From contig CP000071.1 of the NCBI GenBank assembly GCA_000002445.1, forward strand, positions 2,417,191-2,481,190: a stretch of DNA of 64,000 nt, written 5' to 3'. Of the stretch, positions 14,000-64,000 are shown one piece after another. The DNA is from Trypanosoma brucei (taxonomy: Eukaryota). The number at the start of each line of letters is the position of its first letter. Positions within the stretch are counted from its first letter, which is position 1. The position numbers were made by a program, and so were the translations under genes. Under the pieces are notes generated by a model, which ran no database searches, had not been told where the DNA came from, and saw nothing but the letters and a program-made list of their open reading frames with translations.

Positions 14000-14035
14000 G
14001 TTAGGTCACATTATTCCTTGCGTAGTGGAAGTGAA

Positions 14036-35284: not shown

Positions 35285-36154
35285 AGTGATATTTGAATGC
35301 TTTTGCATTTCACTATTTTTATTTTTGTTTTGTTTTGTGTTTTTTTTTTTCATTTGGTAGTCATTTCGGGCTTATGTTTATTTATTTGTAACGCCCTGCT
35401 CATTTCGTTGAGTTTACCCCCCGTTACACTGGATTGTCGTTTCCCTTCAATTTCGTTTTTCACTCTTATTCGTCGTGTAACTTTTGCTACTTTACTAATG
35501 ATTATTCTCGCTTCAGTTTGATGCTGTCCGTAAACAATGTTTGTCATTTTTGTTATTATTGTTGTTGTTATGTTTATACGTTTAGGTTGCAATGGAAAAT
35601 GCAGCAATGATACAACCGATAGCATGTGCCTTGCAGAGTTGAGTGCCAACCATTTTTCGAGGTTCAACGCCTTCCCCCCTCTTTTTGTTACTTTCTCTCC
35701 GTTAGTATTTTGTTTCTCTCTCCCTTTTTTTAAACTGCTACGAGGTTACCATCTGCAATCGTTGTATTACTACTATATATATATATACATTTAAAATGTA
35801 CAACAGCGTAGGGAAGAAAAGAGAGAGAGGAACTAAAACAACAAAAAAAATATGTAGAGTGTATCGGAATAGAAACGAAAGAAAGAAGCACAAAAAAAGA
35901 AAAAAGAAACCCGTCGCCATATAAATGATAAAAAGGCGTAAATAAACGAACAAATAATCAAAGGGATTTGTTTATGTATTTTAATTGTCCAATTGTTTTA
36001 TTTTCCATCTCACCACCTTTAGATCCTTTTTTCTTTTTCTTTTTTTCTTCTTCTATGATATTTGTTTCATTTACTGCAGGTGAGGTTTCTGTTAGTAATT
36101 GGTGATTTCAGCCAGCGACCAACTAAATCAGACCCTAAGCTGTTATTGGACCTA

Positions 36155-37570: not shown

Positions 37571-39382
37571 AACTGAGCAAAGTAAAGTAAAAAATAAAGT
37601 AATGTGAGAGATCATATAGCTCTCGGTATTTTAATTGTTGTTGTTGTTGTTTTCCCCCCTTTTCTTTTCTGATTGTAATTTTTCATCTTTGACTTCCTTT
37701 TTTTTTTTTGAGTGCAATTAAGTCGAGGCAACAGTTAAAAAACAAAACAAAACGAAAAGAAGAAATGATATGCCCGTCTATTACTAAAGAAAAACAAACT
37801 AACTAAAACTTATTAAGCACAAATGAATTAACAGGAGGAGGAGGAGGAAGAAGAGATGTTGAACGACATCAGGTTGTAATGGTTGTTTCGATCCGATGCA
37901 CTTTAAAGCAAGAAAAATTTCCCCTTTTTTTAAAAAAAAAAGAAAAAAGAAACAACAATATTCTCAAAGATCAGAAGAGAGAAAAATTAAAAAAGAAGAA
38001 GCAAAAACAACAACAACAACAACAGCAACAACGAAGTGGTGAATAGAAGAAAGAAAGAAAGAAAAAAAAACTAAAACGTCTAATTATTTATTTTATTGTG
38101 AGGCATATCGACTTTATGAAATGAAAAAATTGTTTTTCACTGTCAAAGGAATTACAAGAAAAAGAAGTAGAAGACAAGCAAAACGGTTTTTAGAACGCAT
38201 TCGACACTAGGGAAAAAGGCAAAATTAGGAAAAGTTTGGTTATTAAACTTTTTTTTTTCAGTAATAAAATACAATATAATTCTATCTTATTTTTTTTTTC
38301 AATTTTTGTTTTCCTTAACCTCATTTAGCAAGTAGTTGCAGCTACCAGTGCAAATAATGCAATTTCTTTTTTTTCTTTTTCTCTTTCTCTTTTTGTATGT
38401 GCGTGTTCTTTCCTTCTTTTTTTTTCGTTTTAATTTTTTTTTTTTACTATTTCCCCACTGCGTCACGGTATTTGCCCCGCATGAGTTCCTCTTAAACACG
38501 CCTTTATTATTCATGTGAGTGCAGGAAATATAAAAAGAGGAGGAAAAGAAAAAAAAAAGAGGAGGATTTGGGGATGAGGGCGGCAGGACTTTAACGATAT
38601 TAATATATTTATTTATGGGTCACAATTTCCTCGGCACTTCAGTACTTTCAATGCAAACAATTGTGATGACTCCACACGCATTTGTGAATAATTACTCTCC
38701 ATCCTCGAACATGCGGTGCTTCATGTTGCTAAACAGAAGCCACCAAATAATTTAAAAAAAAAGTAAAGAGTAAAAAAGGGGGAAAAAGAAACATTATTTA
38801 TTTTTCAGAGTTCTCTTTTTTATTTTTCTTCTTCTTTTTAAAGCCATCATTTCACGCTGTTAAAAAGGTAAAAAAAAAATATGCACATGGCGGTCAAAGT
38901 ACGCATTCCTCCAAGACTCAAAATGGGTGAAAGGTTAGCTTGAAACTGTGAGCTGCAGCTTCCACTGATGGAAGGAACCGCTTCAAAAAAAAAAAAGAAA
39001 AAAAGGGAGACAACCGTAACATAACGAAGGTTTCCGCACTTATATATTCCGGTGTAGGTTCAAATGCAAGTTTTTTTTTTTTGTATCCAATTGAAATAAA
39101 TGATACGGTACTTTGGACCTTTTATGCCGGCTGCGGTGTAACCCTTTATTGCATTAGTGGTGCTGACGTCCTCCACTTTGCCCTACAGAGGGAATGTCGC
39201 TTTGTTTTGTTTTGTTACACTTACCACATAACCATCATCACCGTCACCACCGGTATTTTTTGCATGCTGTCACATTATTATCATTATTATTATTATTATC
39301 ATTATTATTATTATTATTTCCGTTATTCCTTTTAATTTCTTTTTGTTTTATTGGTTGTGGAATTTTACAAGGGCCTTTGAAG

Positions 39383-39407
39383 CACACAACACACACACAC
39401 ACACACA
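39383..39407. repeat. (CA)n microsatellite in the 5' region of the AAT gene at 39427. An (ATT)n tract lies just upstream at 39266-39322.
   Basis: Direct reading gives acacacacacacacacacaca. Confidence 0.9.
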
Positions 39408-39426
39408 AGGAGCGCGTGAAGGAGTG

Positions 39427-40842
39427 ATGGACAGATCTGGCAGTCAATCCGCAGCATCAGCGGCGTCGGAACTTGCTGACAGTCGGGGTTTTGTGGGGCC
39501 AATATCGGATGCCCATGACCACGGAAATACTGACGAGAAAAATACCTCAAAAGCAAAGGATTCAAATGGTTTCTTCTCGAAGGTGAGTTTATGCATCGCC
39601 ACTGTTTTACCTCCAGGCGGCATTGCGGCGAGTGCTTTCAACATGGCCTCAACAACTCTTGGCGGCGGTATTATTGGGATGCCAGCAGCAACCAACAGCA
39701 GTGGACTTGTTATGGGATTATTTTATCTCATGCTCATTTCCTCCGTAACCGTTTTTACAATGCACAACCTTTCCATTGCAGCGGAGCGCACCAACACCCA
39801 CACGTTTGAGGAGGTGACTCGTGTGCTTCTTGGCCGTGGGGCTGCATATATTCTCGCTGCTATCCGAGCATTCCTTGGGTTTAGTGCCTGTGTTGCTTTT
39901 GTTATATCTTTGGGGGATATTATGTCTTCTATTCTAAATGGCACTAATGCACCGGATTTTTGGAAAGAAAAATCAGGTAACCGCGTCTTGACGGTAATAG
40001 TTTGGGCATGTTGTATGCTTCCACTTGTGATACCGCGACATGTGGATTCACTTCGTCATGTTTCCACCTGTGCCGTTACTTTCATGGTGTATTTTGTCAT
40101 TGTGATTGTTGTGCACTCGTGTCTAAATGGGCTTCCGGAGAATATTAAGAGCGTTAGTGTTGGAAAGAGTGATACAGCTGAAATTATCCTTTTCAACACC
40201 GGAAACAAGGCAATTGAAGGATTGGGAGTATTTATGTTTGCCTTTATTTCGCAAGTTACAGCATATGAGGTCTATGTGGACATGAAGGATCGCTCCGTGC
40301 GTAAGTTTGTTATCGCAGCCACCGTAGCCAATGCACTTTGTTTTGTTTTGTACGCTCTAACGGCCTTTTTCGGTTACATGGACTTTGGCCGTGATGTTAC
40401 CGATTCAATTTTGCTCATGTACGATCCCGTGAATGAACCCGAAATGATGGTTGCAATGGTTGGCATATTGGTGAAGTTGTGTGTATCGTATGCACTGCTT
40501 GCCATGGCACTTCGCAATTCATTGTACAGCATTGTTGGAGTAACTGCGGATAAGCTGCCTTTTTGGAAGCATTGCGTTACAGTTTTGGTCTTGTCTGGTA
40601 TTATTCTCCTTTTAGGGCTATTCATCCCAAAGATCAATACAGTATTCGGTTTTGCTGGTTCCATTACTGGTGGCTCACTTGGTTTTATTTTTCCCGCGCT
40701 GCTTGTGATGTATTCGGGTGACTTCACATGGCAGAAGGTGGGTCCTGCATATTACATTGCAACTTACTTACTTTTGGCAGGCGGCGTGTTTGTCATCGTA
40801 TTTGGCACCGGTGCCACCATTTGGGGCGCTGCTGTGGGTTGA
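39427..40842 (+). CDS. Amino acid transporter (AAT family), divergent paralog, 471 aa.
   Basis: The track start at 39343 is TTG and the first ATG is at 39427 (MDRSGSQSAASAA...). Motifs: LPPGGIAASAFNMASTTLGGGIIGMP and LLVMYSGDFTWQKVGPAYY. Its central region is nucleotide-identical to the 36155 gene over a long tract. Confidence 0.8.
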   Translation: MDRSGSQSAASAASELADSRGFVGPISDAHDHGNTDEKNTSKAKDSNGFFSKVSLCIATVLPPGGIAASAFNMASTTLGGGIIGMPAATNSSGLVMGLFYLMLISSVTVFTMHNLSIAAERTNTHTFEEVTRVLLGRGAAYILAAIRAFLGFSACVAFVISLGDIMSSILNGTNAPDFWKEKSGNRVLTVIVWACCMLPLVIPRHVDSLRHVSTCAVTFMVYFVIVIVVHSCLNGLPENIKSVSVGKSDTAEIILFNTGNKAIEGLGVFMFAFISQVTAYEVYVDMKDRSVRKFVIAATVANALCFVLYALTAFFGYMDFGRDVTDSILLMYDPVNEPEMMVAMVGILVKLCVSYALLAMALRNSLYSIVGVTADKLPFWKHCVTVLVLSGIILLLGLFIPKINTVFGFAGSITGGSLGFIFPALLVMYSGDFTWQKVGPAYYIATYLLLAGGVFVIVFGTGATIWGAAVG

Positions 40843-49220: not shown

Positions 49221-51887
49221 ATGGGTTGTGGTGGATCAAAGCCGAGGCCACAACCTCCTCAAATGCCTCCACCACCGCCACCACCAGTTGTTGCACCGCC
49301 GCCGCCGCCGCCACCACCACCACCAGAACCCGTCGCGCCGCCAACACCACCACCAAAATCTCCAACTGTTCAATCCGAAGAATCGGTGGTTGAGGAAGTT
49401 GAGGAGGTGCCATTAACTCCAAGAGCCGCACGCCTTCAGAATGTTATTGCAGCAAAGCAGTCGACTTTTATGTACAACAAATGCACCGTTACCGGTGAGG
49501 TGACACCGTTTTTTCCACCGAAAGGTCGATGTTTCCGCATCATTGATGAGGAGGGTCGCTGGTTCTTCTACAACGACACCATGAACTATGAGATGTGCGT
49601 ACAGGCCTTTTTTTCACCCGATTCGGATGTGAAGCACTGCGGGACAACAACAATAAAAAGCATAAGGAATGGATTAACTGTTATATCTGCCTTTGTATAC
49701 CCACTAGAAACGCTGGAGTTCCTTTCTGGTTCAGTGGAGTTGGGAGCCATGTATGTGTATGCGCAACAGCTTTCTAAGCGGTATTACAGCCATCTTCGTG
49801 TTTTCAGCGTGGATGGTAAGAAGGAGATGGAGACAGTTATGACGCTACCGTGGGAGGAAGTGGACGATGAAGAACTTCTAAAGCTATGTTCAGACTCTTT
49901 TATGCGTTACGCTGATGTGAAATTCCTTCCATCAACTGGTATGTTCTCACGCCTCGATATTGATGGTCGTTTCATTCAACCAGTGGAGGTGCGTCGTCCA
50001 AGCGAGTTTGCTCAATGTGACGAGGAAAATATCGATGCTGTGCGCGGTGTCGTCCTTTCCTCCTGCGTGGAGGCGGGCACGCTTGGAGATTCGTGGTTCG
50101 TAAGTGCGCTTTCCCTGCTTGCCACCGATGAGGAACGCGTCAAGGCGATGTTTGCCTCCACCACACCTGCCGAGAAGCAAATGGGCGCCTACCGTGTCCT
50201 ACTAAACAAAGACGGATGGTGGAAGAACATTCTGGTAGATGACTTTCTTCCAACAGTTGGTGGTGTGCCATGCTACGCACGGTGCATCGATGACCCCGGA
50301 GAGTTGTGGCCATCTTTGCTGCAAAAAGCTTACGCGAAATTGTATGGCTCTTATGCAAGCATCACAGGAGGCGACACACTCCTCGCCCTACAGAACTTTA
50401 CTGGAGCGCCAGTGTACCGATTCGATAAAGCATGGCGTGACGCGGCGACAGATGAGGAGAAAAAGAATGCACTCATTCAGAAGATTATGGGATACGTTGA
50501 AGCTCACAATCCCGTCATTTTGAGCGTTCCAACCGGAAAGGAGGCGAAAACCGCTGTTGCGAATGGTCTTGGAGAGGGTTACTCATACGCGCTACTGTCT
50601 GTCCACAACTTCCCTGAGGAGAACATTACGCTTCTGAAGATGTTCAACCCGTGGGAACCTGCGATGCCGTGGTCCGGTCAGTGGCGAGAAGGTAGCGACA
50701 AGTGGACCGAGCACAGCGAGATACAGTCGAGTTGCGAGCCGTGCTTCGAAGCGCATGACGGTATATTTTTCATCGAATGGTCAGAAGCTGTTGAGGTATT
50801 TAATGGTTGCGGAGTTCTGTACTTGGACGAGAAGCCGGTGTATGACTACCGTGTTGCTGGTGAATTTGACAATGAGCAGCCCAACCTTGCGCTTATGATT
50901 CGGGCAAAGGAAACCGTTGAAGTTATGTTGACTCTCTCGCAGAGGGATAAACGCGGTCTGCCTATAGAGTCGCCTGATGCAAAGCTGTCGCCTGTGTTAC
51001 TGTGTGTTTCCCGCGCCGAGCGAAAAAGGCAAGTTGTGTATCAATGCACCAGCTCTGATCCCGAAACCCCTGCAGAAGGCTTTAACTTTGTTGTGGGGCG
51101 AGACCTTGCAATGAAATGTACCTTTGAGGCCAGGGAAGCGCCATACTTTGTTATTCCTCGCATCCACCGCCGGGGAACATGCGAGGGACGCCGCAGGGGT
51201 TTCGTAATTGGCATTCGGTCCAGTACACCATTGGATGAAAAGCTTGAGATTCACTTCACCACACTTGAGCCTACGTGTCGTGTGTTGCATAACTGCATTA
51301 CATTTACAGCTAACCGAATGCCTGGTGCTGTGCGTGAGTGGCAGATAAAGACGCCTGATGCAGAACCCGCAACATACAGGGGTTGGGGTCTCTCTCCAGC
51401 GGAGGAATTCCATGAAGACGATGAAGGTGCGCTGACAAGGGAATATGTTGTGTCGCAGCCTGAAGAATCCCCAACACCTCAAAGTGAAGCACATGTAAGC
51501 GAAGAGGAGGCAAAACCAGAGGAAGAATGTCAACAGCCTTCTGATGAGAAGCCGCACGAGTTGACGGAAGAACCCGAAGCAGAGGCCGCTGCACCTGAAC
51601 CGATGGGAGAAGGAGATGTGGTGGCGGAAGCGCAACCGGAACTTGCCGTTGAGGAACTTTCGGAAGGGGATGTGGAGGCGAGAGAAGCGCCAGCACCACC
51701 GGAGGAGCCACAAGTAACCGCTGAGCCCGAGTCACCGCAGCAATCAGCGGAACCGGAACCGGAAGCTGCGCCTCCCGCCCCCACTGATGACGGTTCCGCT
51801 TCCGAAAGCTCCGATGATGGACTGGGAAGATTTGCAGCTGATCGTATCGGTGCATTTGCCTTATCGGATGATAGCGACACTGACTAG
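49221..51887 (+). CDS. Calpain-like cysteine peptidase family protein (888 aa), predicted to be catalytically inactive. It has an N-terminal dual-acylation motif, a Pro-rich N-region and an acidic Glu/Pro-rich C-terminal tail.
   Basis: The ATG at 49221 gives MGCGGSKPRP..., with Gly2 for myristoylation and Cys3 for palmitoylation. The calpain catalytic-domain region reads ...VEAGTLGDSWFVSALSLLA, with Ser where the catalytic Cys normally sits (QG.LGDCWLL). The His-box region is degenerate (GEGYSYALLSV versus GHAYS). The architecture resembles the T. brucei cytoskeleton-associated calpain-related proteins (CAP5.5/CAP5.5V type), but that assignment is from memory and not verified. Confidence 0.8.
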   Translation: MGCGGSKPRPQPPQMPPPPPPPVVAPPPPPPPPPPEPVAPPTPPPKSPTVQSEESVVEEVEEVPLTPRAARLQNVIAAKQSTFMYNKCTVTGEVTPFFPPKGRCFRIIDEEGRWFFYNDTMNYEMCVQAFFSPDSDVKHCGTTTIKSIRNGLTVISAFVYPLETLEFLSGSVELGAMYVYAQQLSKRYYSHLRVFSVDGKKEMETVMTLPWEEVDDEELLKLCSDSFMRYADVKFLPSTGMFSRLDIDGRFIQPVEVRRPSEFAQCDEENIDAVRGVVLSSCVEAGTLGDSWFVSALSLLATDEERVKAMFASTTPAEKQMGAYRVLLNKDGWWKNILVDDFLPTVGGVPCYARCIDDPGELWPSLLQKAYAKLYGSYASITGGDTLLALQNFTGAPVYRFDKAWRDAATDEEKKNALIQKIMGYVEAHNPVILSVPTGKEAKTAVANGLGEGYSYALLSVHNFPEENITLLKMFNPWEPAMPWSGQWREGSDKWTEHSEIQSSCEPCFEAHDGIFFIEWSEAVEVFNGCGVLYLDEKPVYDYRVAGEFDNEQPNLALMIRAKETVEVMLTLSQRDKRGLPIESPDAKLSPVLLCVSRAERKRQVVYQCTSSDPETPAEGFNFVVGRDLAMKCTFEAREAPYFVIPRIHRRGTCEGRRRGFVIGIRSSTPLDEKLEIHFTTLEPTCRVLHNCITFTANRMPGAVREWQIKTPDAEPATYRGWGLSPAEEFHEDDEGALTREYVVSQPEESPTPQSEAHVSEEEAKPEEECQQPSDEKPHELTEEPEAEAAAPEPMGEGDVVAEAQPELAVEELSEGDVEAREAPAPPEEPQVTAEPESPQQSAEPEPEAAPPAPTDDGSASESSDDGLGRFAADRIGAFALSDDSDTD

Positions 51888-53065: not shown

Positions 53066-53326
53066 ATTTTTATACGTCCGTGAGCAGACAGGGAGTAGGA
53101 AAGGAAACGAAACCCCATATACGAAAAAAAAAAAATAACTGAGGAAAAGGAATAAGAATAAGAATAAGAAAAGAAAAAGAAAGGGAAGAACAAATAAAAA
53201 AAAAGATAATAATAATAGTAATAAAGGGAACAAAAAAAAAAAAAAGAAAACTGGTTCATTTTTTTACTCCAATTGCTGCATCGTTATCTTTTTCTTTCCG
53301 ATAGAAAAAAAACAAAAGAACCCAAA

Positions 53327-54169
53327 ATGACTTCCTCTTCTTTTCTAGAGGAACTTGGCCCCGTAGCGGTTTCCCATCGGAATGAGTTGGAGGAGGTGAA
53401 GCGTCAGTTGGGTATTGAAAGGAATGAATTGGACTGTTGGATTTATGCTTTTCTGGAGAACAAAAAGTTTGATATCAAAGAAACTGTGGCAAAATTGCAG
53501 CGGCGCTTTGCAATGGAAGTGAGTGAAATGGCCAAATATGAAGTAACGGAAAGCATGCGCTCGTCTCTTCGTTCCGGCATTATTCAAGCAATTGGGGAGG
53601 ATAAATGTGGTCGTACCGTATTTTACGTCACAGTCAGTAGAGATACAAGTTCAGAAGGTACTCGTGAAGAGAAGAAACGGACATTTGACTTGATAGTGAG
53701 TTATGGAACACGGTTACGAGCGGATAACAAACGGTGCCAAATGGTACTGCTCGTGAATTATGAGAACGCAAGTATGTTAAGTAACGTGGACATGTCGCTT
53801 CAGATGGATGTTGCGACGCGCGTGTCCAAATTTTTTCCAGGATGCATCAGTAAAGTCCTGCTGTGCAATATGGGCTCAATTTTGTGTACGTTTATGAAGC
53901 CGGTGTTGGGAACCATGCCGGCTTCTTTTTCCGATACCATTTCGTTATTTTCTTCAAATGATGTGACTAATGGTTCGTTACTTGAATATATCGACAAGAG
54001 CGTCCTTCCCGTACAACTTGGCGGGACAAACGACTGTGATGATCAGGTGCATTGGGACCGTTACGCGGATATTATTGAGAATTATTACCGTGATATGAGG
54101 ATCGCTATTGTGGAGCGAGGGCTAAAGGTGAAGGATTGGGAGTTGGAGTGCCTTTCTGCTAATGAATAA
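53327..54169 (+). CDS. CRAL-TRIO / SEC14-like lipid-binding domain protein (280 aa).
   Basis: The track start at 53273 is TTG and the first ATG is at 53327 (MTSSSFLEELGP...). The CRAL-TRIO N-terminal helix pattern (LDCWIYAFLENKKFDIKETVAKLQRR) fits. GEDKCGRTVFYV matches G.DkeGRPv. The C-terminal ...FMKPVLGTMPASFSDTISLF...LLEYIDKSVLPVQLGG matches the SEC14 lP..lGG end motif. Confidence 0.7.
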   Translation: MTSSSFLEELGPVAVSHRNELEEVKRQLGIERNELDCWIYAFLENKKFDIKETVAKLQRRFAMEVSEMAKYEVTESMRSSLRSGIIQAIGEDKCGRTVFYVTVSRDTSSEGTREEKKRTFDLIVSYGTRLRADNKRCQMVLLVNYENASMLSNVDMSLQMDVATRVSKFFPGCISKVLLCNMGSILCTFMKPVLGTMPASFSDTISLFSSNDVTNGSLLEYIDKSVLPVQLGGTNDCDDQVHWDRYADIIENYYRDMRIAIVERGLKVKDWELECLSANE

Positions 54170-56036
54170 ATAAATGTTGTAATGAAGGTAAATATAAATG
54201 TAATGTGTTCCATTCGCTTCTCATAGGAGGAAGAGAGAAATGGTGATATTTTTGTGTTTCTTTTCTTTTGTTTCATGAATGTGCGTAACATTTCATTTAT
54301 GCAAGGGACATTTCACGCCGACTTCTCCTCGTGTGCCACACACACACACACACACTTGTTTTTTATACACGCGTATCCCCGTGCGTTTAGTTGTGTCCAT
54401 CTTTTTTTTTTTTTATCTTGCTCCAAAAGTATTTTTATACTCCATGCGTGTGTGTCTGCATTTGTCCTTGTTTTTGTTTTTATTGTTATTTGAGTGTGCA
54501 TGTTATTGAAGACCGCATGCATCCACTTTTCATGCTCCTGCAGCACATATTTTGTGTTAGCCCTTCTGTAATATTAATAATTACGCATATTGCGTCAAAA
54601 AGGGAGCCGATTTGTTTGGTGCATTCTTTTTTTTTTGTATTTATTCATTTTTGTGCGGTTGTAGAGGCTCACTTCTGTGCAAAGGAAATTTAAAAGATGG
54701 AGGAAGTTAGTCTTTTTTTCTGTATTTCTAGTTCCACTGTTTTTGCGGTTCCATTCAACAAGAAGAGGAAAATTAAAGAAAAGATACGCCCACCTTCTAC
54801 ATGCAGGTATTTAAATTTTTTTCATTTTTCTTTCTTTTTGTTTTGCTGTTTTTTTTCTTTTTATCCCCTCTCTCTTTTCTTTTTTTTTTTCTGGCGATTA
54901 ATTTTCATGCAATTTACATGCAGTTTTTGACAATTTTTTTTTGTTGTTATGTTTTTGTTACATGTTCTTTCCTTTACTTTTTTTTTTCCATCATTTGCTT
55001 TTGGAATGCAGCGTCTTTACCACCTGCACTGCGGGGCAGATGGTTTGAAACGCTGGAAGCGAAGGAGGACAAAAACAAAACAAAACAAAACAAAACGACA
55101 AAACTCACCCACATAAACGGTTGGCTTGTTAAAATTTTATTTATAATTTTAAGTGGGTATCGAAATATGTTTCGTTATGAATAGTTCATCAACAACCATT
55201 TATTACGAGTGATTGTATTGCCGCAGGGCCTTCATCATCGCCATTTTACTAATTGTCTTTCTTCCCCCCCATTTTTTTTTTTAAAAGAAAAAGTTTTTAA
55301 AAAAATTTTCTTGTAGTTGCATGTGTGTTTGCATTTGTGTTGTTTCCCACTCCTTTTCGTTGCTTTTACATGAAGTTTTTAGTCATATCACTTGTTATTT
55401 GGGGAAATTGGGAGAGAGGTACAAAAGGCAAATGGGAATATATGAGGCGTGTACGTTTTTGTGTTTATATTATAATTGTAATAATGATAATAATTGTTGT
55501 TGTTGTTGTTCTTGTTGCGCGGTGAAACCTCATCAGATATATAATGGAGGGACGGTAAAGATTGGCAGGTGCGAGTAAGTGGTAAATGCAGGGCGAGAGG
55601 AAAATAAAAATATATTTAAAAAAAAATGATTCGGAAGGTGCATGTGTAAATAGCCTCGTTTTTAGTCATTCGCTATTACTGCTCTGAAAACGGGGGTGGA
55701 CTTCTCCCACTCGTCACCAGCTGTGTTTTTTATATATAATTTACTAACAATTGAATTTGTTTCGTCGTTTATTGTTTCATCTTCTCTTTTAATTTTTGTT
55801 ACTTGTGCCTCAAATATCGTGTTTTAGTGACTTTGCTCTACATTTAGAAGCGTTGGGGGAGGAAAGTAATACGGCAGGCAACGACGTGTTGCCACGAAAG
55901 CTTCTAAGAGGAAAAAAAGAAGGTGTGTAGGCAAAAAAAAAAAAGAAAAGAGTGTGTGTGTGAGGGAAGTGCCTTGCGCTAAGTAAGTGACTCAAAGGGG
56001 CTTTACACTGAAAAGCGCGTTAACTTTCACGCCCAT

Positions 56037-58343
56037 ATGCAGAAAAGTATACAAGATGAAGTGCGGTTTAGTTCTTCACCCCGGGTCTTAAGGTCAGCTA
56101 GTCGTGACACCCATAAGGAAATGGAGGAACTTCCTAATGCATCGTCACCTCTTCTTATGCGGCGTGTGGCATCGTTAGACGCACTTCCACCTCGACCTTC
56201 CTCGCGTCATCCCCGCAGTGAAGGCGATAGCGTTCCATCAGTGCTGAATCCCAACCGACAGCTGGAGGATTTATCGCGTGATACGCAGCTACTCAATGCA
56301 TATGGTGGTTCAGACAGCATGCCCGGTATTAATAAGATACCCGTGAAGTCATTTCAACAACATCTGCAGGGAAGGCAATTCCACTTCGCAAAGCATCGGC
56401 TTCCTCAACTCAGTAATGTTCAATCAGCTCGGAGTGTTTCGACACCTGCGCGAAAGGGACGACAGTCACCGCGGTGTCGTTACAATGCACTTCCAGCTTT
56501 ATCTTCAAGCCCACCTCGCACACGTCGTGGCGCTTCGTTTGCACGCCCATATCCCAACAAACCGGGGACGCCGCAGTCCTCTCGTGCTCCCCCCAGACGA
56601 GCCTCAGCACGGCCCATTGCATCTCCTTCTTCTCCATTGGCTGCACCGCTACATCGCGCAGATTCCGTCATCCCTGCAGCAGTTGCTGAAGATTCCTCAG
56701 CAGACGGTAAACAATCTGCGGTGGCGCGAACACGTGGCGGTCGCATACGCGTTGTTGTGCGTAAGCGGCCGTTGCCTCCGGATGAAGAGGGCTGTGATTG
56801 TGTTTCTATGGACCCACCTAATGTGAAGGTTGCGGTGCGGAAGCAGCGTGTGGACCTTACGGAGTATGCGGATGTGAATGACTTTACCTTTGATGACGCT
56901 TTCGGTGAGGATAAACACAATGAACATGTGTTCGATTCGTGTTGTAAGGAACTTCTAGAGACAACGTTGCAAGGTGGTAGTGCCTCATGTTTCGCATACG
57001 GCCAAACAGGAAGTGGCAAAACGCATACAATGCTTGGTAACAGCGGAGAGCGTGGCCTTTATATATTAGCCGCCGCCGCTATTTTTAGTTCGTTAGAGAA
57101 GGATCAGGAGGTGTATGCCTCGCTCTATGAAATTTACTGTAATTCGCTGTTTGACTTGCTCAACAATCGTTCACCCGTCGTAGTGCGTGAGGATCATAAC
57201 CGCCGTATGCATATAACAGGCCTTACGTGGCATGCCGTTACGTCGGCTGAGGAACTTCAGCTACTGATCAACAGTGGAGCTGACCGGCGGAGCACCGGAA
57301 GCACAACTGCTAATGAGCGTTCCAGCCGTTCCCACGCAGTGCTCACCATTCAGGTTAGGGATCGCGAGGACAACAGGTTCTGTGGCACGCTTAACCTTGT
57401 GGATCTAGCAGGTAGCGAACGCGCGGCCGATACCGCCACTAATGATCGTCAGACACGGCAGGAAGGTGCGGAAATTAATAAATCGTTACTCGCCCTCAAG
57501 GAGTGCATCCGTGCGTTAGACGAAAAGAAGAAGCATGTTCCCTTCCGTGGGTCGAAGTTGACGGAGATTCTACGGGACAGCTTCATTGGAAATAGTCGTA
57601 CAGTTATGATTGCCAACATATCGGCATCGTCACAAAACTACGAGCACACCCTCAACACACTGCGATATGCCTTTCGCGTGAAGGGTTTAAGTGTTGTCAA
57701 TTTTGAACCGAGTCGTGCCCGCAATGCACCGCGGCCGCTGAAACCGGTTGTTTCTGACATGAATCCCACGCAAGGAGTTCCTCAGGTAAATGCCGGCCCT
57801 TTGAAAACAACACCGGGGCGGTGGCGTTCGGTCTCATCTAATGCCTTTTTAGCTAACAGGCGTAACGTCTCCTCGGGAAACGCACTTGTACAACAGCGTA
57901 ACCATGTTACCAGCAGTCCTTTGCGTAGTAATAACACTCAGGGAGCAAATATTGCTTCGGGAGCTGGCGAGAATAATTTCGCTGTTTATGTTCGTCAAAT
58001 AGCCGGAGAAGTGGTGGGGAATATTATTCCACAGTTAAGGGCGGATGGGGGTCGTGATTCCTCGCTTCCATCAAACAGTGATTACCTGCAAGAGGAGGGC
58101 TCCGGTGTTTCTTTTAACGATGAATTGATAAGGCAGTTAGAAGATCGTGTTGTTGCAAGGATGAAATTGGATGTGATAAGGTTGGTTAGGGATACAATGC
58201 TGAGGAGGGAGCGTGCTATTTCAAAGTTGCGTAGTGAAAACACGATGTTGAGCAAACTTAATGGGGCGTTAGAAAGGCGTGCCGCGGAGTGTGCGCACTG
58301 TAGAGGGCAGAACACACGTCAAATACAACAGCAACAAAACTAG
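56037..58343 (+). CDS. Kinesin-13 family motor protein (768 aa), of the MCAK-like microtubule-depolymerising class.
   Basis: ATG at 56037. It has a central motor domain with a P-loop (FAYGQTGSGKTHTM), switch I (SSRSHAVLTIQV) and switch II (LVDLAGSER). It also has the kinesin-13 diagnostic KLTEILRDSF motif, a KVD-like neck region (IRVVVRKRPL) preceding the motor, and a C-terminal coiled coil. Confidence 0.85.
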   Translation: MQKSIQDEVRFSSSPRVLRSASRDTHKEMEELPNASSPLLMRRVASLDALPPRPSSRHPRSEGDSVPSVLNPNRQLEDLSRDTQLLNAYGGSDSMPGINKIPVKSFQQHLQGRQFHFAKHRLPQLSNVQSARSVSTPARKGRQSPRCRYNALPALSSSPPRTRRGASFARPYPNKPGTPQSSRAPPRRASARPIASPSSPLAAPLHRADSVIPAAVAEDSSADGKQSAVARTRGGRIRVVVRKRPLPPDEEGCDCVSMDPPNVKVAVRKQRVDLTEYADVNDFTFDDAFGEDKHNEHVFDSCCKELLETTLQGGSASCFAYGQTGSGKTHTMLGNSGERGLYILAAAAIFSSLEKDQEVYASLYEIYCNSLFDLLNNRSPVVVREDHNRRMHITGLTWHAVTSAEELQLLINSGADRRSTGSTTANERSSRSHAVLTIQVRDREDNRFCGTLNLVDLAGSERAADTATNDRQTRQEGAEINKSLLALKECIRALDEKKKHVPFRGSKLTEILRDSFIGNSRTVMIANISASSQNYEHTLNTLRYAFRVKGLSVVNFEPSRARNAPRPLKPVVSDMNPTQGVPQVNAGPLKTTPGRWRSVSSNAFLANRRNVSSGNALVQQRNHVTSSPLRSNNTQGANIASGAGENNFAVYVRQIAGEVVGNIIPQLRADGGRDSSLPSNSDYLQEEGSGVSFNDELIRQLEDRVVARMKLDVIRLVRDTMLRRERAISKLRSENTMLSKLNGALERRAAECAHCRGQNTRQIQQQQN

Positions 58344-61300
58344 ACACAATGCAACATCAACCGAACAGGGCACTGCGCAGCGAAGGTCAAGTGGAGACCG
58401 GTAGCTAGCAGTTTTACGTGTCAGTAACTAAAAAATATATTTATCACCGTCATTCCTTAGCTTGAAGGGGGAAAGTATGACGTTTTCATCCCCCATTTTC
58501 TGCTGTTTTTCGAGGTAAGTGCACTTCCCCTCTCTGATTTTCTTTTTCTTTTTCTTCTTTGATGTAACATTTTCTCCAACATCTTCCCACCATCCTAACA
58601 ATAATTCCAATGTCGGGATGTGTGTACGTATACTTGTATGTGTGGGGGAATGAGGAGAATGACGGGAGCGTGCGATGCGTATCATTGCACCAATTTTTTT
58701 TTTTTTTTTTGCAGTGAGGCGTGTCATGAATGGAAGTTTAAAGAGGAAAGAGGGAGTAATCCGATGGAACGTAATCAACAGTATAGATGCTGGTGGTTGT
58801 GGTTGTGGCAGTGGGTGAATTATATTCTTTTTGCATAGAACCCATTGGGCCGCTGATATATCGACTGTACAAGAGGGATATGCAAGAGGTATTTAGAGGA
58901 GGGATAGAGGGAAAGGACGAGTTGAAAAAAGAAAAAAAGAAAAATAAGGGGGAAAAATAAATAGTGAGACCAAACATTGTTTTGTTTTGTTTTTTTTACA
59001 GTTGATATTGTGGACGCAAACATATTTGCATGTGTATGGGGGTTTGTAAACCACTGCGTCAAGTTTAACGACATTTCGGGACGTTAAGGAGGAGCGATGC
59101 ATGTGTAAAAGGGAAGGAAAGAGCTGTGAAAGTGTTTTTGTTCATTTGTTTTCAAGACATTTACCACATTTTAGGGGGTGATGTCGTAGCGTATTATAAA
59201 ATGTAAATAAATAATAAAAAAAGGAAAAGGAAAAGGAAAATGGGAATGAAGGGACTGTGATGGAAAGATTATTCCTGCAGCAGAAGCTACTGGTGTCTGA
59301 TTTTAGGTGGGTACGTCCACGTGGTTTTTATTTTAACTATAGTGACGCTACCTCTCTTTCCGCTTAAGTTTTTATCTTTGCTTTTCTTTTGTACATGGCG
59401 CTGACGCTGACGCTGACAGTGACGCAAGTATGTTTTCTTTTCTTTTCTTTTTTTTCATTTCATGTTCCCACCTTGCATTATACGGAAGTGAACATGTGTC
59501 GTTACTTTTCTTTCGTATGTTCGTGCGTGCAGCCTTGTAAATACTATTCTGTTAACGCACAACACTTCCCAAACCTGAAGGAGGCGCAGCACAACAACAT
59601 AAGTCTTGTCGAGGAGTATCAACAGCTTTTATTATCACGATTGATTATAAGTTATCAACTTTTCTCGCGTATTTCTGCTCATTTATAATAATAATAATTA
59701 TTATTAACATCTCCTCACGCTCTGTCACCTCGTGTGTTTCTTTTCTCTCTTTTTTTTTCCCCTTCTTTCGAATGTTCGTTATTCTTTGGCGCACGGTTTA
59801 CCCTTCACCACCGCGGAGGTTTGTTTGGTTGTTTTTTGATCACTTTTGTTAATGCATTTGGGTGAAGGGATGTCAGTATCATTTTTGCTGCGGCTTAATT
59901 TTTTCTTGCCCCTCTCTTTTTCCCCTCAAAAAAAAAAAAAAAATAACATTAATTCTCCAACGCCGCTTCTAAAGGTGTTATCACAGTCATTTCATGTGCT
60001 TGCAACCGACCTTTTAATTGGGGGTGCGTGTTGCAGTTCCTTCTTGGGATTGCACGGCTTTATGAGGCCGAAAAGTATACTTATCCTCATTTCATTTGCA
60101 CTTAACACATGCCGCTGCTTTGCATGCATTCGTTCTTCGAAACGGTTTGTTGTGTCAGGAGTTTTTTTTTGTTTTTTTTCTTCTTCTCGTGCTTCTAATT
60201 TTCTCCTCTTTTATAATGTTACTGTACATTGAAACAATCACACGCAATCAATCCCGTCCTTTTTTTTTTCTTTCCATACCTTCCACTGCGGCTTGAGATG
60301 CTTTCATTAATTGGCGATGTTTTACCATGTATATTTTATTGCCATCTTCACTGTTTTAGCACACACTTTACTTCTCACTATCTCCTTTTTTTTTTTGTCG
60401 CTCCTCGCTTTAGTTGGAAATGGTACAAACCCCTTAAGATGTGAAATACAACTAAAAAAAATCTTTTTTTCTTTAGTGATTCATTGAATTTCTTTAGCCT
60501 AACAGGCATGCGGCTGCGCATCGCACCTTTTACCACCGCCTCCCCCACACTTATTGTTTACAGCAGTACTTCCGCCACGAAACACGCGATGTTTATTTAA
60601 TGTCTTCATTTCGACACAACATATAACTTCACATGGAAAATGGGTTAATGTTTCACTGGCTCATAATGAGGTAGCAAAGTTATGGATTATTGTACTAACA
60701 GTAAAGTTAATAAATGAAGATCCAAAAGACGACAGAAGAGGCTTGCATTTCTGTTAGGGAAATGCATGAAAATGTTCGGTTTCTTTTATTCCCTGAAGAA
60801 CAACAACTGGCGCTGCGGGCTTTACTAAAATCCAGCGAAGGATGATGTTTGATGCCGGTCGGTAAGAACATTAATGAAGGAAAGAGAAGGTGGCTTTATT
60901 ATGCGTGTACGCTCGTTAATTTTCTCTTTTTTATTTTTTATTTATCGGAGCGGGAGGTTACTTCGGGAATTTTGGCCTCTTTTTTTTTCCCCGTAATTGC
61001 AGCGGCACGAATTGATGAGCTCTCGACCACATATATGCTCTTTAAAGTGAGTGAAGCTGAGGGAAGGGGAGGGGGAGGGAGTGAGTCAAAAAAAAAAAAA
61101 AAGGAAAATTCACACCATTGTGCGAAAAGTGTGATGTTGAGAGCGGAGGGTAATGATAAGTTGTTGAGAGTTTAATTAAGGCCCCTTGTTGTCAACCCTA
61201 CACAAAATTACAAACCTCCTCTATTCCCGTAATTTTTATTTATTTACGGTATCTGTATAAAATGTACTCATTTTTATGTGCGCAATGCCGTATGTCCCAC

Positions 61301-62489
61301 AGTTACCCTTGTTTATTTTTATTTTTATATTTATCCATTTATTTTGCGTTGTTTCCCCGTTTCCTTCTTGCTGGAGGGAAGGCTCTGTCCTGTTGCTAAC
61401 AATGGCGCCGAGTAGTGCCTCTTCATGAGAACAACACAACTACCAGCAGAGGAGGGAGAATAATAATAACAAATTAATTCGCATCACTCTCTACATATAC
61501 CGCCGGTAGCAGCACTGCGGCACTTGGAGATTTGGAAGGTGACACAAATGAATAATGCCGGGTGTTAGATAAAACAACTTCCCATGTATGTAATGTGACG
61601 GAAAAGAGGCACAACATGTTGTTAATAGGATTTTGACGTTTGGAAAACGACCCACTTCCTTTTACTTGTAAAATGATGTTCTGCTTCCACTTAAATCTTT
61701 TCGTTCCGCCACCGTTACACGGTGTATACTAGCGGTGCATTATTCACTAATTACTATGAGTTCACCAACGTTGCCGCGCAAACACATTTTTATCGTTGTA
61801 GGTTTTTTTTTTGTGGGTGGGAGGCTGCAAGGTTTTCTTTTCGGGTTATGCGCGTAATTCCGGGATACCTTCAATTTTTGCCTACGCAACATCCGTTAGT
61901 GAAGTGACTGCCCCTGTCAACCTTCAGTTGCAGGTCAAAAGGCGTGACTCCGCGTAATTTACCCTCCGTTTCTTTAGCTGTGACGACAATGAAGGACACC
62001 ACTCGGTTGAAATGGAAGCATGTGTTTGTGTGAGTGCCTTTCATTTCTTCGTAACTCATGCGGCAGCGTCGACTTTTTTAAGGGCACGCAAAAAAGTATA
62101 TGGGGTTGCTCGAAAATATGAACGACATAGCGGACGGTTTCCATTATTTCCCTCTTTACAACCACTGAATCCAATAGACCAGGCCGCAACCTACTCTACA
62201 CACTGCATTAACAAAGCAGGCGTCGTTATGATTATTCAGCATGTGGGGATACGAATTGCACTGAAAGGGAGGATGGGGAGGGAGGAAGGAGACATGAACA
62301 TCATGTGACATCTTCATTTTGGGATGTTAGTTATTTATTCCTGACTGGGAGAATGCGCGAAATAACGTTGTGTGTGGTGTGGTGTGGTGGCCCACTAACT
62401 CACTAACTCACTCACTCTTCCTCCCACTTCTTATGTCTCTCGAAACTTTCTCCAAGACAATATATTTCCTCGACTAAGGTAAAATAAGC

Positions 62490-64000
62490 ATGGCTTCCGT
62501 CGGTCAGTCGACCGGATTCGGCGGATTCGCTGGCGTCATCACCGGCAGGCATATCACCACATATTCCACTGGGGGCACCATGAGGCGCCGACCACCCGCC
62601 ATCACTTTTTTTTTAATACCGCTACTGTTGGTGTTGCCACACATCGTGAGACCACTCGCTGCAAAGAAAAGCATAAAAGTAAAGGTTTATAATTTGCTTT
62701 TCACTAACCGAGCGCCGCGCCGGTCAATTGAGACTATGGGGGCCGGCCTGAACGCATCGTTTGCTGCTCGTCACTGGGCCACTGCGGAGAACGTCACCGT
62801 GGAGATCATTCCGCCACCTTCCCGTTCGGTTTCCACATTGAAGTTACTGGAAGCCGCCGCCGATCAGAATAAAGGTGAATTTTTCGTTGTAGTTGGGCCA
62901 ATGGGCGATACTCGAACGTTGGCAGTGCTTCCACTGCTGCGGCGGGAGGACTTGGTTGCATTTGCGCCTCTTACCGGATCGAGTGCTGTTCGCGGGTGGG
63001 ACCCTCACTTCTATTTTTTAACCCCCGCGCCCAACGCTGAGCTCATCGCCCTCCTCCGGTACGCGATAAACCGCCTTCGTTTGCTTCGGGTTGGATTTAT
63101 GTACCTTCAGGGTGTGCACTTCGGTGACAGGGAATATCAAGAGACCCTGAAGCTCATGACCCGTATGGGCAGAAGGTTGTGCGGGGTTTTTACCAAGATG
63201 CATGCAGCCACCGTAATGAGAGCCGATGAAGAGTTTGATTCGCTCTGGGAGGAATTTGTGATGACGCATCCGCAGGGGGTCATCGTGTTCACTCCCCCGA
63301 TCCGTGAGGCGTTGAAGTTTGTAAGGAGGGTTGCGATGGATGCCCGCACGCGTGGTGTGTACGTGTTGGCTCCTTCGGCGATGCAATTCGTTATCGGTGC
63401 AACCTGGCGCACTGCAGTGGAAGAAGCTGCGGTCCCATATATTCCCGATAGGGTTATTGTGGCTGCGCCGAACCCGCTTGCAAGCGAAACGAAATACCAC
63501 GCGGTACGGCGCTTCCAGGAGGATGCGAGGTCATACCTGCGTTATCATCCTGGCGTAACCGCGTTCAATGCTTCGGACGATTTTGATCACGATGATGCGG
63601 ATGGAGCGCTTATGGTTTCTGGATGGGTTATAGGGGAGGTGCTATCGCAAGCGCTGAGTAGCCGTACGTGGTTGGAAAGTAGGGAGGCGTTCATTAAGTC
63701 ATTGTACAACCAGCGTCGGTACGTTGTCGATGATCTCGTGTTTGGTAACTTCGGTGGTGAGTGCCATGGTATGGCGGGAGAGCGGGGTGCGTCGTGTTTA
63801 TGTAACCAAGGTGGAAATGTTGTTTACATGAATTCTTTAGGTGATGACCATCGGATGATTCCACTAAGGGACGGCATAACAGTATTCAACATTGACCAAT
63901 GTTCAACCAGTGGCGTGAAGATGCCCACCCCCCTCATTGTCGTAGTTGTACTTGTGGTAGATGATTCCGCCGCCGTAAGTGCATTTTTTTCATTGGTTAT
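62490..64000 (+). CDS. 3'-truncated ORF (more than 503 codons) not listed in the ORF track. It has a predicted signal peptide or N-terminal membrane anchor. One possibility is a receptor-type adenylate cyclase (GRESAG4-like) extracellular domain, or another large ectodomain protein.
   Basis: An ATG at 62490 follows an in-frame TAA at 62475-62477. There are no stops through the end of the window (by manual translation). The hydrophobic segment MRRRPPAITFFLIPLLLVLPHIVRPLAA comes 30 aa in, and an alternative start is at 62580. The mixed alpha/beta-looking ectodomain (IKVKVYNLLFTN..., VVVGPMGDTRTL...) is compatible with a periplasmic-binding-protein-like fold. That fold interpretation rests on recollection of trypanosome cyclase N-termini, not on a search. 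Confidence 0.45.
   Translation, partial: MASVGQSTGFGGFAGVITGRHITTYSTGGTMRRRPPAITFFLIPLLLVLPHIVRPLAAKKSIKVKVYNLLFTNRAPRRSIETMGAGLNASFAARHWATAENVTVEIIPPPSRSVSTLKLLEAAADQNKGEFFVVVGPMGDTRTLAVLPLLRREDLVAFAPLTGSSAVRGWDPHFYFLTPAPNAELIALLRYAINRLRLLRVGFMYLQGVHFGDREYQETLKLMTRMGRRLCGVFTKMHAATVMRADEEFDSLWEEFVMTHPQGVIVFTPPIREALKFVRRVAMDARTRGVYVLAPSAMQFVIGATWRTAVEEAAVPYIPDRVIVAAPNPLASETKYHAVRRFQEDARSYLRYHPGVTAFNASDDFDHDDADGALMVSGWVIGEVLSQALSSRTWLESREAFIKSLYNQRRYVVDDLVFGNFGGECHGMAGERGASCLCNQGGNVVYMNSLGDDHRMIPLRDGITVFNIDQCSTSGVKMPTPLIVVVVLVVDDSAAVSAFFSLV

What the first reader, a model, noticed from the sequence alone, without database searches (positions are those of the whole stretch)
62490..64000. Long open frame running off the window end that the ORF track misses
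Manual translation from ATG 62490 gives more than 500 codons without a stop. There is a stop 13 nt upstream and a hydrophobic signal-anchor-like segment (FFLIPLLLVLPHIV) after a basic stretch (MRRRPP). The track only lists stop-terminated ORFs, so this gene is invisible there. The short antisense ORF at 63018-63500 is a shadow of it. The ectodomain-like composition and N-terminal topology fit a large surface or receptor protein. Trypanosome receptor-type adenylate cyclases have this layout, with a signal peptide and then a periplasmic-binding-protein-like domain.
Basis: partly seen in the sequence, partly recalled or inferred. Interest (0 to 1): 0.55.

Follow-up and report, generated by a model that had tools for sequence, protein, structure and literature searches.

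The report
Known trypanosome receptor adenylate cyclase gene
The open frame is real, and it is the first 503 codons of an already annotated Trypanosoma brucei surface receptor-type adenylate cyclase gene (GRESAG4 family, Tb927.8.8360) that looks unfinished only because the reference chromosome 8 sequence, and so the window, stops inside the gene.

Summary
Observation confirmed. Window 62490-64000 (+) is open for 503 codons. The other five frames have 12-30 stops each, and chance is about 3e-10. An in-frame TAA lies at 62475-62477. The ORF lister omits this frame only because it runs off the end.

Interpretation supported. [quoted passage not shown] This is gene Tb927.8.8360, the last gene of the chromosome 8 core, just after the CAP5.5 paralogue, a CRAL-TRIO gene and an MCAK kinesin.

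The fragment holds a 30-residue N-terminal extension, a basic plus hydrophobic signal-like segment, one complete periplasmic-binding-protein (Venus flytrap) module, and the first ~25 residues of a second module. The first module matches Pfam PF25495 at E = 1.6e-52, and its predicted fold matches LivJ-type binding proteins.

Orthologues in T. b. gambiense, T. evansi and T. b. equiperdum (98% identity where compared) run to 1,240 aa. They add the second module, one transmembrane helix and a class III cyclase domain (1FX2, E = 1.4e-120). The antisense ORF is a shadow.

The finding is ordinary and already known. The open points are the ligand and which ATG is used.

The parts
62415..62456 (+). Polypyrimidine tracts (62415-62425, 62446-62453) followed by the first AG (62455-62456): the likely spliced-leader trans-splice acceptor of the cyclase mRNA
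   Evidence: Sequence and pattern scan. Two further AGs, at 62477 and 62487, also precede ATG 62490. Use of any of these sites is inferred from the usual trypanosome rule (polypyrimidine tract, then first AG) and was not shown here.
62490..64000 (+). 5' part (503 codons plus 2 nt) of the receptor-type adenylate cyclase gene GRESAG4 / Tb927.8.8360, cut off by the end of the window and of the assembly
   Evidence: The frame is open. The exact translation equals XP_847659.1/AAZ13593.1, 'partial'. It is 98% identical, without gaps, to the N-terminus of the 1,240-aa T. b. gambiense orthologue. The DNA is 97.6% identical and colinear with T. b. gambiense chromosome 8. The gene order matches Jackson 2007.
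62490..62579 (+). 30-codon N-terminal extension (MASVGQSTGFGGFAGVITGRHITTYSTGGT) ahead of the signal-like segment; whether it is translated depends on which ATG is used
   Evidence: The deposited proteins of all three full-length orthologues and of TREU927 start at this ATG, and an M31-start version is not in the collection. The closest T. congolense relative, P0001, has an extension of similar length with no Met at the equivalent of M31. The model shows it as disordered, with pLDDT about 30.
62580..62663 (+). Signal-peptide-like segment, aa 31-58: basic MRRRPP, hydrophobic ITFFLIPLLLVLPHIV, then RPLAA just before the first conserved beta-strand (KKSIKVKV)
   Evidence: Hydropathy. It aligns with the hydrophobic N-terminal segments of homologues, which end just before the conserved VKV strand. 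It is a helix at aa 42-52 in the model. The cleavage site is inferred; no SignalP run was possible.
62670..63923 (+). First Venus-flytrap / type I periplasmic-binding-protein-like module of the ectodomain (aa ~61-478). It includes the PF25495 core (aa 183-325 = 63036-63464) and a Cys-rich conserved stretch (C425, C436, C438, C471).
   Evidence: PF25495 scores 177.7 bits, E = 1.6e-52, with a weak PF13458 match at aa 129-350. There are 45 invariant columns among 12 trypanosome cyclases. The AlphaFold model has alternating beta/alpha elements, pTM 0.71. Foldseek against the PDB gives 813 matches at E <= 0.001, led by LivJ/LivK-type binding proteins (target-normalised TM about 0.7) and including mGluR and taste-receptor ligand-binding domains.
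63924..64000 (+). Start of the second flytrap module (PF25493); the hydrophobic LIVVVVLVV is its first strand region, not a membrane helix
   Evidence: In the 98%-identical orthologue PF25493 spans aa 479-844, E = 1e-130. The window sequence matches the family consensus PLxGxxxxxxDxxxAxxA at this point.
63018..63500 (-). Antisense 160-aa ORF: a shadow of the cyclase reading frame, not a gene
   Evidence: It has no Pfam match even at E <= 10. It lies wholly inside the PF25495-coding stretch. The longest stop-free antisense run (170 codons) is within expectation when the sense codons are shuffled synonymously: mean 136, sd 33, and 14.6% of shuffles reach it.

Best explanation
Window 62490-64000 is the 5' 40% of Tb927.8.8360, a receptor-type adenylate cyclase of the GRESAG4/ESAG4 family in Trypanosoma brucei brucei TREU927. 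It is the last gene of the chromosome 8 core, and the reference assembly ends inside it.

In near-identical orthologues the full protein is 1,240 aa and a type I membrane protein. An N-terminal signal-like segment directs a ~800-residue ectodomain, made of two Venus-flytrap (type I periplasmic-binding-protein-like) modules, to the cell or flagellar surface. One transmembrane helix (aa 856-882) links it to a cytoplasmic class III cyclase domain (aa ~898-1103).

In characterised family members, that cyclase domain makes cAMP from ATP only when two catalytic domains dimerise. The ectodomain is thought to control dimerisation in response to an external cue. No ligand is known for any family member.

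Shown here: the open frame, the identity to the deposited protein, the domain content, the fold class, and the orthologue architecture. Taken from the literature (PMC6027212): activation by dimerisation and the stress stimuli. Inferred: signal-peptide cleavage, use of ATG 62490, and an intact 3' half in strain TREU927 itself.
For: - The frame is open for 503 codons, against 12-30 stops in each other frame.
- PF25495 matches at E = 1.6e-52.
- Homologues with an informative name are all trypanosome receptor-type cyclases, and the exhaustive search finds 155 relatives. The four full-length relatives checked (1,236-1,270 aa) carry PF25495 + PF25493 + Guanylate_cyc.
[quoted passage not shown] Its 90% cluster holds 1,240-aa orthologues.
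- Identity to T. b. gambiense XP_011776202.1 is 495/503 with no gaps. That protein carries PF25493 at aa 479-844 and Guanylate_cyc at aa 898-1103, a hydrophobic peak of 3.09 at aa 856-882, and a catalytic domain matching 1FX2 at E = 1.4e-120.
- The T. b. gambiense locus is syntenic (CRAL-TRIO, kinesin, cyclase) and 97.6% identical in DNA over 11 kb.
- The neighbouring calpain is 100% identical to a TREU927 protein.
- Jackson 2007 names Tb927.8.8360 as the cyclase at the chromosome 8 terminus, directly after Tb927.8.8330/8340/8350 (PMC2212663).
- The predicted fold matches LivJ-type binding proteins.
Against: - The 3' 60% of the gene (second flytrap module, membrane helix, cyclase domain) is not in the window, and apparently not in the TREU927 record. 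For this strain the full architecture rests on 98%-identical orthologues.
- No signal-peptide predictor was available. A 36-residue stretch before the hydrophobic core is long for a signal peptide.
- Of the 14 nucleotide differences from T. b. gambiense, 9 are non-synonymous and 5 synonymous. That is too few to show constraint, although Jackson 2007 reports dN/dS of about 0.24 for this paralogue pair.
Confidence: 0.97

Rival explanations
1. Same gene, but translation starts at the second in-frame ATG (62580, M31). The protein would then begin MRRRPP followed by the hydrophobic core, like a classical signal peptide, and 62490-62579 would be 5' UTR.
For: M31 followed by RRR and a 16-residue hydrophobic core has the classical signal-peptide layout. 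Residues 1-36 are modelled as disordered, with pLDDT about 30. AG dinucleotides at 62506 and 62547 could serve as alternative splice acceptors between the two ATGs.
Against: The polypyrimidine tracts are followed first by AGs at 62455, 62477 and 62487. All three lie upstream of ATG 62490, which would then be the first AUG of the mRNA. All deposited orthologues start at the first ATG, and no M31-start version is deposited. The closest T. congolense relative has a similar ~27-residue extension with no Met at the M31-equivalent position. There is only one substitution in the 30 codons between subspecies, which is not informative either way.
Confidence: 0.25
2. A truncated or decaying pseudogene relic at the chromosome end of strain TREU927: only the ectodomain part survives, and no cyclase is made from this locus.
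For: The sequence stops inside the gene at the chromosome end (PMC2212663). In T. b. gambiense the gene is followed by fragmented retrotransposon hot-spot (RHS) pseudogene pieces typical of unstable subtelomeres. The comparison with T. b. gambiense gives 9 non-synonymous against 5 synonymous differences.
Against: There are no stops or frameshifts in 503 codons, and the alignment to the intact 1,240-codon orthologues has no gaps. Three related taxa keep a complete gene. All 45 columns invariant among the 12 aligned sequences are by definition kept in the window sequence, and family-wide conserved motifs persist to the window end. The published dN/dS is about 0.24. An assembly break at repeated RHS sequence is the simpler explanation for the truncation.
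Confidence: 0.03
3. A chance open frame, or a different kind of surface or solute-binding protein with no link to cyclases.
For: None beyond the fact that the cyclase domain itself is not in the window.
Against: The chance probability is about 3e-10. The cyclase-specific Pfam family matches at E = 1.6e-52. The sequence is identical to the deposited GRESAG4 protein and 98% identical to full-length cyclases.
Confidence: 0.005

Closest known systems
[quoted passage not shown]
   Same: Identical over all 503 residues, with the same start codon and the same truncation point. It has the same neighbours Tb927.8.8330/8340/8350.
   Different: Nothing; this is the gene itself.
Full-length orthologues: T. 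b. gambiense XP_011776202.1, T. evansi AEL79570.1, T. b. equiperdum RHW71065.1 (1,240 aa each)
   Same: They belong to the same 90% cluster. For T. b. gambiense, identity is 495/503 without gaps, the locus is syntenic, and the DNA is 97.6% identical.
   Different: They are complete. They add PF25493 (aa 479-844), a transmembrane helix (aa 856-882), a cyclase domain (aa 898-1103) and a C-terminal tail.
Chromosome 4 paralogue Tb927.4.3880, and the wider ESAG4/GRESAG4 family (GRESAG4.1 and 4.3 catalytic domains solved as 1FX2 and 1FX4)
   Same: The architecture is the same. The orthologue's catalytic domain matches 1FX2 at E = 1.4e-120. The pair arose in the chromosome 4/8 duplication (PMC2212663).
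   Different: Identity to the chromosome 4 paralogue is only 48.7%, and at most about 49% to any other cyclase returned by the two homology searches. The variable ectodomain of this lineage is therefore quite diverged, which is usual for the family (PMC6027212).
Mammalian receptor guanylyl cyclases (ANP receptor type) and bacterial LivJ/LivK type I periplasmic binding proteins
   Same: Like the ANP receptor, it has an extracellular flytrap module, one membrane helix and an intracellular class III cyclase that acts as a dimer (PMC6027212). The predicted fold of the first module superposes on LivJ/LivK-type proteins and on mGluR and taste-receptor ligand-binding domains.
   Different: Sequence identity to these structures is only 10-15%. 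The trypanosome enzymes have two flytrap modules in tandem, make cAMP rather than cGMP, lack a kinase-homology domain according to the Pfam results, and have no known ligand.

Membership tests
Trypanosomatid receptor-type adenylate cyclases (ESAG4/GRESAG4) | First ectodomain module of the cyclase-specific periplasmic-binding-protein-like type (Pfam PF25495) | tested here: met
   177.7 bits against a cut-off of 27, E = 1.6e-52, covering profile positions 1-143 of 144.
Trypanosomatid receptor-type adenylate cyclases (ESAG4/GRESAG4) | N-terminal signal sequence that places the large N-terminal domain outside the cell | tested here: inconclusive
   A basic stretch plus a 16-residue hydrophobic core lies at aa 31-53 and aligns with the N-terminal hydrophobic segments of homologues. 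No signal-peptide predictor was available, and the start codon (M1 or M31) is unresolved.
Trypanosomatid receptor-type adenylate cyclases (ESAG4/GRESAG4) | Second flytrap module (Pfam PF25493) | tested here: inconclusive
   Only its first ~25 residues are in the window, and they fit the family consensus. The 98%-identical orthologue has the full module, E = 1e-130. The window fragment alone scores 20.6 bits, below the cut-off of 27.2.
Trypanosomatid receptor-type adenylate cyclases (ESAG4/GRESAG4) | Single transmembrane helix between ectodomain and catalytic domain | not testable with these tools
   It lies beyond the window and assembly end. It is present in the orthologue at aa 856-882, the highest hydropathy peak (3.09), flanked by charged residues.
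Trypanosomatid receptor-type adenylate cyclases (ESAG4/GRESAG4) | Cytoplasmic class III cyclase catalytic domain | not testable with these tools
   It lies beyond the window and assembly end. The orthologue has PF00211 at E = 2.4e-39 and matches GRESAG4.1 (1FX2) at E = 1.4e-120. The motifs FTDIESST, KTVGDSFM and the core YYGRT-NMAARTES are kept (one Ser/Pro difference in the third motif).
Trypanosomatid receptor-type adenylate cyclases (ESAG4/GRESAG4) | Sequence identity to a deposited family member | tested here: met
   An exact match to XP_847659.1, named GRESAG 4.
Type I periplasmic binding protein / Venus flytrap fold | Two alpha/beta lobes superposable on LivJ-type binding proteins | tested here: met
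   The AlphaFold model has pTM 0.71 and mean pLDDT 71.6. Foldseek gives 813 PDB matches at E <= 0.001. Top hits are Leu/Ile/Val-binding proteins with probability 1.00 and target-normalised TM of 0.67-0.75. There is also a weak PF13458 match.
Type I periplasmic binding protein / Venus flytrap fold | Binding of a small ligand in the cleft between the lobes | not testable with these tools
   No ligand is known for any trypanosome cyclase (PMC6027212). Pocket residues were not analysed.

The most novel reading that the evidence does not exclude
The chromosome 8 cyclase may represent an old, separately kept lineage. Its ectodomain is at most about 49% identical to any other cyclase the searches returned, and its closest relative outside the brucei group is a T. 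congolense protein that shares the unusual ~30-residue extension before the signal segment. On this reading the first flytrap module has its own ligand specificity, and the conserved extension is translated and has a function, for example in targeting or regulation. Nothing here tests this beyond the alignment.
Probability: 0.15. Interest if true: 0.3.

Novelty: already known. Interest (0 to 1): 0.07.

Why it matters
It matters little as a discovery, because the gene is already annotated (Tb927.8.8360) and belongs to a well-described, roughly 80-member family.

It is useful as a check. The case also shows that ORF tracks which list only stop-terminated frames hide genes cut by the end of a sequence.

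One practical point for anyone using the TREU927 reference: this cyclase is represented only by its first 503 codons, because the chromosome 8 core assembly stops inside it. Expression or proteomic mapping to this gene therefore misses 60% of it. The near-identical T. b. gambiense, T. evansi and T. b. equiperdum entries give the complete 1,240-aa protein.

The open biological question, what the flytrap ectodomains sense, applies to the whole family and is not made more testable by this window.

Tried and rejected
1. Recovering the source contig beyond base 64000 failed. I looked up the window's kinesin, its calpain, and the database copy of the calpain in the gene-position index. TREU927 is not on record there.

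2. A sequence search of the 503-aa fragment against the PDB gave only chance-level hits, E > 0.3. No ectodomain of this family appears to be solved, so I used fold comparison instead.

3. The word-index homology search and the exhaustive representative search returned only relatives of at most about 49% identity. They missed both the identical deposited protein and its 1,240-aa cluster representative. For a while this suggested an unsequenced species or an unannotated gene. The exact look-up corrected that. Absence from those two searches should not be read as novelty.

4. T. b. gambiense hit P0003 turned out to be a different, partial cyclase at the end of another chromosome record (FN554970.1), not the orthologue.

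5. I considered a membrane-helix reading of the hydrophobic stretch at aa 482-500 and rejected it. It aligns with the first strand region of the second flytrap module, and the real membrane helix is at aa 856-882 in the orthologue.

6. A coding reading of the antisense ORF 63018-63500 was rejected.

7. No credible ORFs or tandem repeats were found in the 4.1-kb spacer 58344-62489.

8. A full-text search found no paper other than Jackson 2007 that names Tb927.8.8360.

Full report
**Observation.** Translating window 62490-64000 on the + strand gives 503 codons without a stop. The nearest upstream in-frame stop is TAA at 62475-62477, whose last base is 13 nt before the ATG. Over the same stretch the other five frames carry 12-30 stops each. 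The chance of a 503-codon open frame is about 3e-10 from the region's own base composition. GC by codon position (0.58/0.45/0.56) resembles the neighbouring kinesin and calpain genes, whereas the 4.1-kb upstream spacer is flat at about 0.40. The ORF lister omits the frame only because it does not list ORFs that run off the source. The basic MRRRPP and the hydrophobic ITFFLIPLLLVLPHIV segment are at residues 31-53.

**What it is.** Pfam places residues 183-325 in PF25495, 'Adenylate cyclase, periplasmic binding protein-like domain' (177.7 bits, E = 1.6e-52). Weaker matches go to the second cyclase ectodomain family, PF25493, and to the general PF13458. The word-index homology search returned 11 proteins. 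Nine are named as trypanosome receptor-type adenylate cyclases (T. brucei gambiense, T. vivax, T. cruzi, T. rangeli, T. grayi, T. conorhini); the other two (T. congolense unnamed products) and a metaclust entry carry no informative name. Identities were 38-49%. The alignment is colinear with 45 invariant columns. An exhaustive HMMER search of 1.84 billion cluster representatives found 155 relatives. The four full-length ones I checked (1,236-1,270 aa) have PF25495, PF25493 and the class III cyclase domain PF00211 in that order.

**Identity of the gene.**
- The window is kinetoplastid. All ORFs of at least 200 aa except one antisense ORF lie on one strand, and they include a kinesin, a calpain with the kinetoplastid DUF1935, a CRAL-TRIO protein, a DnaJ protein and arrays of amino-acid transporters.
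- The calpain at 49221-51887 is 100% identical to a T. brucei brucei TREU927 protein on a 2,481,190-bp contig.
- Jackson 2007 (PMC2212663) describes the chromosome 4/8 duplication. [quoted passage not shown]
- Its supplement gives the order Tb927.8.8330 (CAP5.5 paralogue), 8340 (CRAL-TRIO), 8350 (MCAK kinesin), 8360 (GRESAG 4 cyclase). This is exactly the order in the window. It also gives 48.7% identity between the cyclase and its chromosome 4 paralogue.
[quoted passage not shown] Its accession number directly follows that of the kinesin.
- The deposited partial protein ends at the same codon as the window, and the paper places the gene at the chromosome terminus. I therefore infer that the window end is the end of the chromosome 8 record.

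**What lies beyond.** The same 90% cluster holds complete 1,240-aa orthologues from T. b. gambiense, T. evansi and T. b. equiperdum.
- The T. b. gambiense protein is 495/503 identical to the fragment, without gaps.
- It continues with PF25493 (aa 479-844, E = 1e-130) and PF00211 (aa 898-1103, E = 2.4e-39).
- Its strongest hydropathy peak (3.09) is at aa 856-882, flanked by charged residues. This is the single membrane helix.
- Its cytoplasmic part matches the solved catalytic domain of GRESAG4.1 (1FX2) at E = 1.4e-120.
- The T. b. gambiense locus (L002) has the same CRAL-TRIO, kinesin, cyclase order. It is 97.6% identical in DNA to window 53066-63998 over 11 kb, and the gene there is an uninterrupted 1,240-codon frame.

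About 737 codons (2,214 nt with the stop) are therefore missing from the window. After the gene, T. b. gambiense has fragmented retrotransposon hot-spot (RHS) ORFs. This marks the start of the repetitive subtelomere and gives a plausible, though inferred, reason for the assembly break in TREU927.

**Structure of the part in the window.** An AlphaFold2 model built on the 12-sequence alignment has mean pLDDT 71.6 and pTM 0.71. Residues 1-36 are disordered, the hydrophobic segment forms a helix (aa 42-52), and residues ~61-470 show the alternating strand/helix pattern of an alpha/beta sandwich. Foldseek against the PDB gives 813 matches at E <= 0.001. The top hits are Leu/Ile/Val-binding and other type I periplasmic binding proteins (probability 1.00, target-normalised TM 0.67-0.75). 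Ligand-binding domains of metabotropic glutamate and taste receptors are also among the hits. The hydrophobic run at aa 482-490 near the window end aligns with the start of the second module in all homologues and fits the family consensus, so it is not a membrane segment. A weak similarity between aa 387-450 and aa 759-822 of the orthologue (E = 3e-4) suggests the two modules are old internal duplicates.

**How it most likely works.** Established knowledge of the family comes from the review PMC6027212. These are type I membrane proteins with a variable ~90-kDa ectodomain holding two flytrap modules, one membrane helix and a conserved class III catalytic domain. The catalytic domain is active only as a dimer. 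Activity rises under acid, hypotonic or proteolytic stress, and no natural ligand is known. From the domain content shown here, the chromosome 8 gene fits this scheme. That it responds to a particular ligand is inference.

**Start codon.** ATG 62490 and ATG 62580 (M31) are in frame.
- *For the first ATG:* the polypyrimidine tracts at 62415-62425 and 62446-62453 are followed by AGs at 62455, 62477 and 62487, all upstream of it. All deposited orthologues use it. The closest T. congolense relative has a similar extension with no Met at the M31-equivalent position.
- *For M31:* it gives a classical signal-peptide layout, and the extension is disordered in the model.

I rate M31 use at about 0.25. 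It does not change what the gene is.

**Antisense ORF.** The 160-aa ORF at 63018-63500 (-) has no Pfam match. It lies inside the most conserved coding stretch. Its length is within expectation for synonymous shuffles of the sense frame: 170 stop-free codons against 136 +/- 33, with 14.6% of shuffles at least as long.

**Verdict.** The feature is an already annotated gene of a well-known family, seen as a fragment because the reference sequence ends inside it. Interest is low. One caution on method: the two homology searches did not return the identical deposited protein, which only the exact look-up found. Their modest identities must not be taken as evidence of novelty.

Noticed in passing
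window 63999-64000; L002 11510-11511: The last two bases of the window read AT where T. b. gambiense has GT (the next codon there is GTG). The deposited partial protein ends at the same codon as the window, so the window end appears to be the end of the TREU927 chromosome 8 record.
   Followed up: partly
L002 15596-18306 (T. b. gambiense chromosome 8, downstream of the cyclase gene): Fragmented retrotransposon hot-spot (RHS) ORFs (PF24466, PF20445, PF07999, split over several frames) follow the cyclase gene. They mark the core-subtelomere boundary and are a likely cause of the assembly break in TREU927.
   Followed up: partly
window 29544-32381 (+): This 945-aa ORF matches only the first 41 positions of the cyclic-nucleotide phosphodiesterase catalytic profile (PF00233, 36 bits, aa 597-637). 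No full PDE domain or other domain was found. It may be a degenerate or very divergent PDE-like protein, in the same transcription unit as the cyclase.
   Followed up: partly
window 14018-27933 and 36062-40842 (+): There is a tandem array of five amino-acid transporter ORFs (460-466 aa; Aa_trans confirmed by Pfam for three, the other two are same-length repeat copies not scanned). Two further transporter genes of ~500 aa follow. This corresponds to the chromosome 8 transporter arrays discussed by Jackson 2007.
   Followed up: no
window 58344-62489: The 4.1-kb spacer between the kinesin and the cyclase has no credible ORF or tandem repeat and is about 40% GC. It is conserved with T. b. gambiense at about 97-99%. 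Short GT-rich (GGTGT) and CACTAACT motifs lie at 62366-62410, just before the polypyrimidine tract.
   Followed up: partly
window aa 387-450 (63648-63839) versus orthologue aa 759-822: There is weak but significant similarity between the C-terminal part of the first flytrap module and the matching part of the second (BLAST E = 3e-4; also a sub-threshold PF25493 hit on aa 375-449). This is consistent with an old internal duplication of the ectodomain module.
   Followed up: no
tools (versus 34): Neither the word-index search nor the exhaustive representative search returned the identical deposited protein or its 1,240-aa cluster representative. The exact-sequence look-up did find them. The best identities from those two searches (46-49%) therefore understated how well known this gene is.
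   Followed up: yes
window 9025-11652 (+): This 875-aa ORF matches CCDC39 (PF24161, E = 6.6e-75), an axonemal ruler protein. This is ordinary for a flagellate.
   Followed up: no
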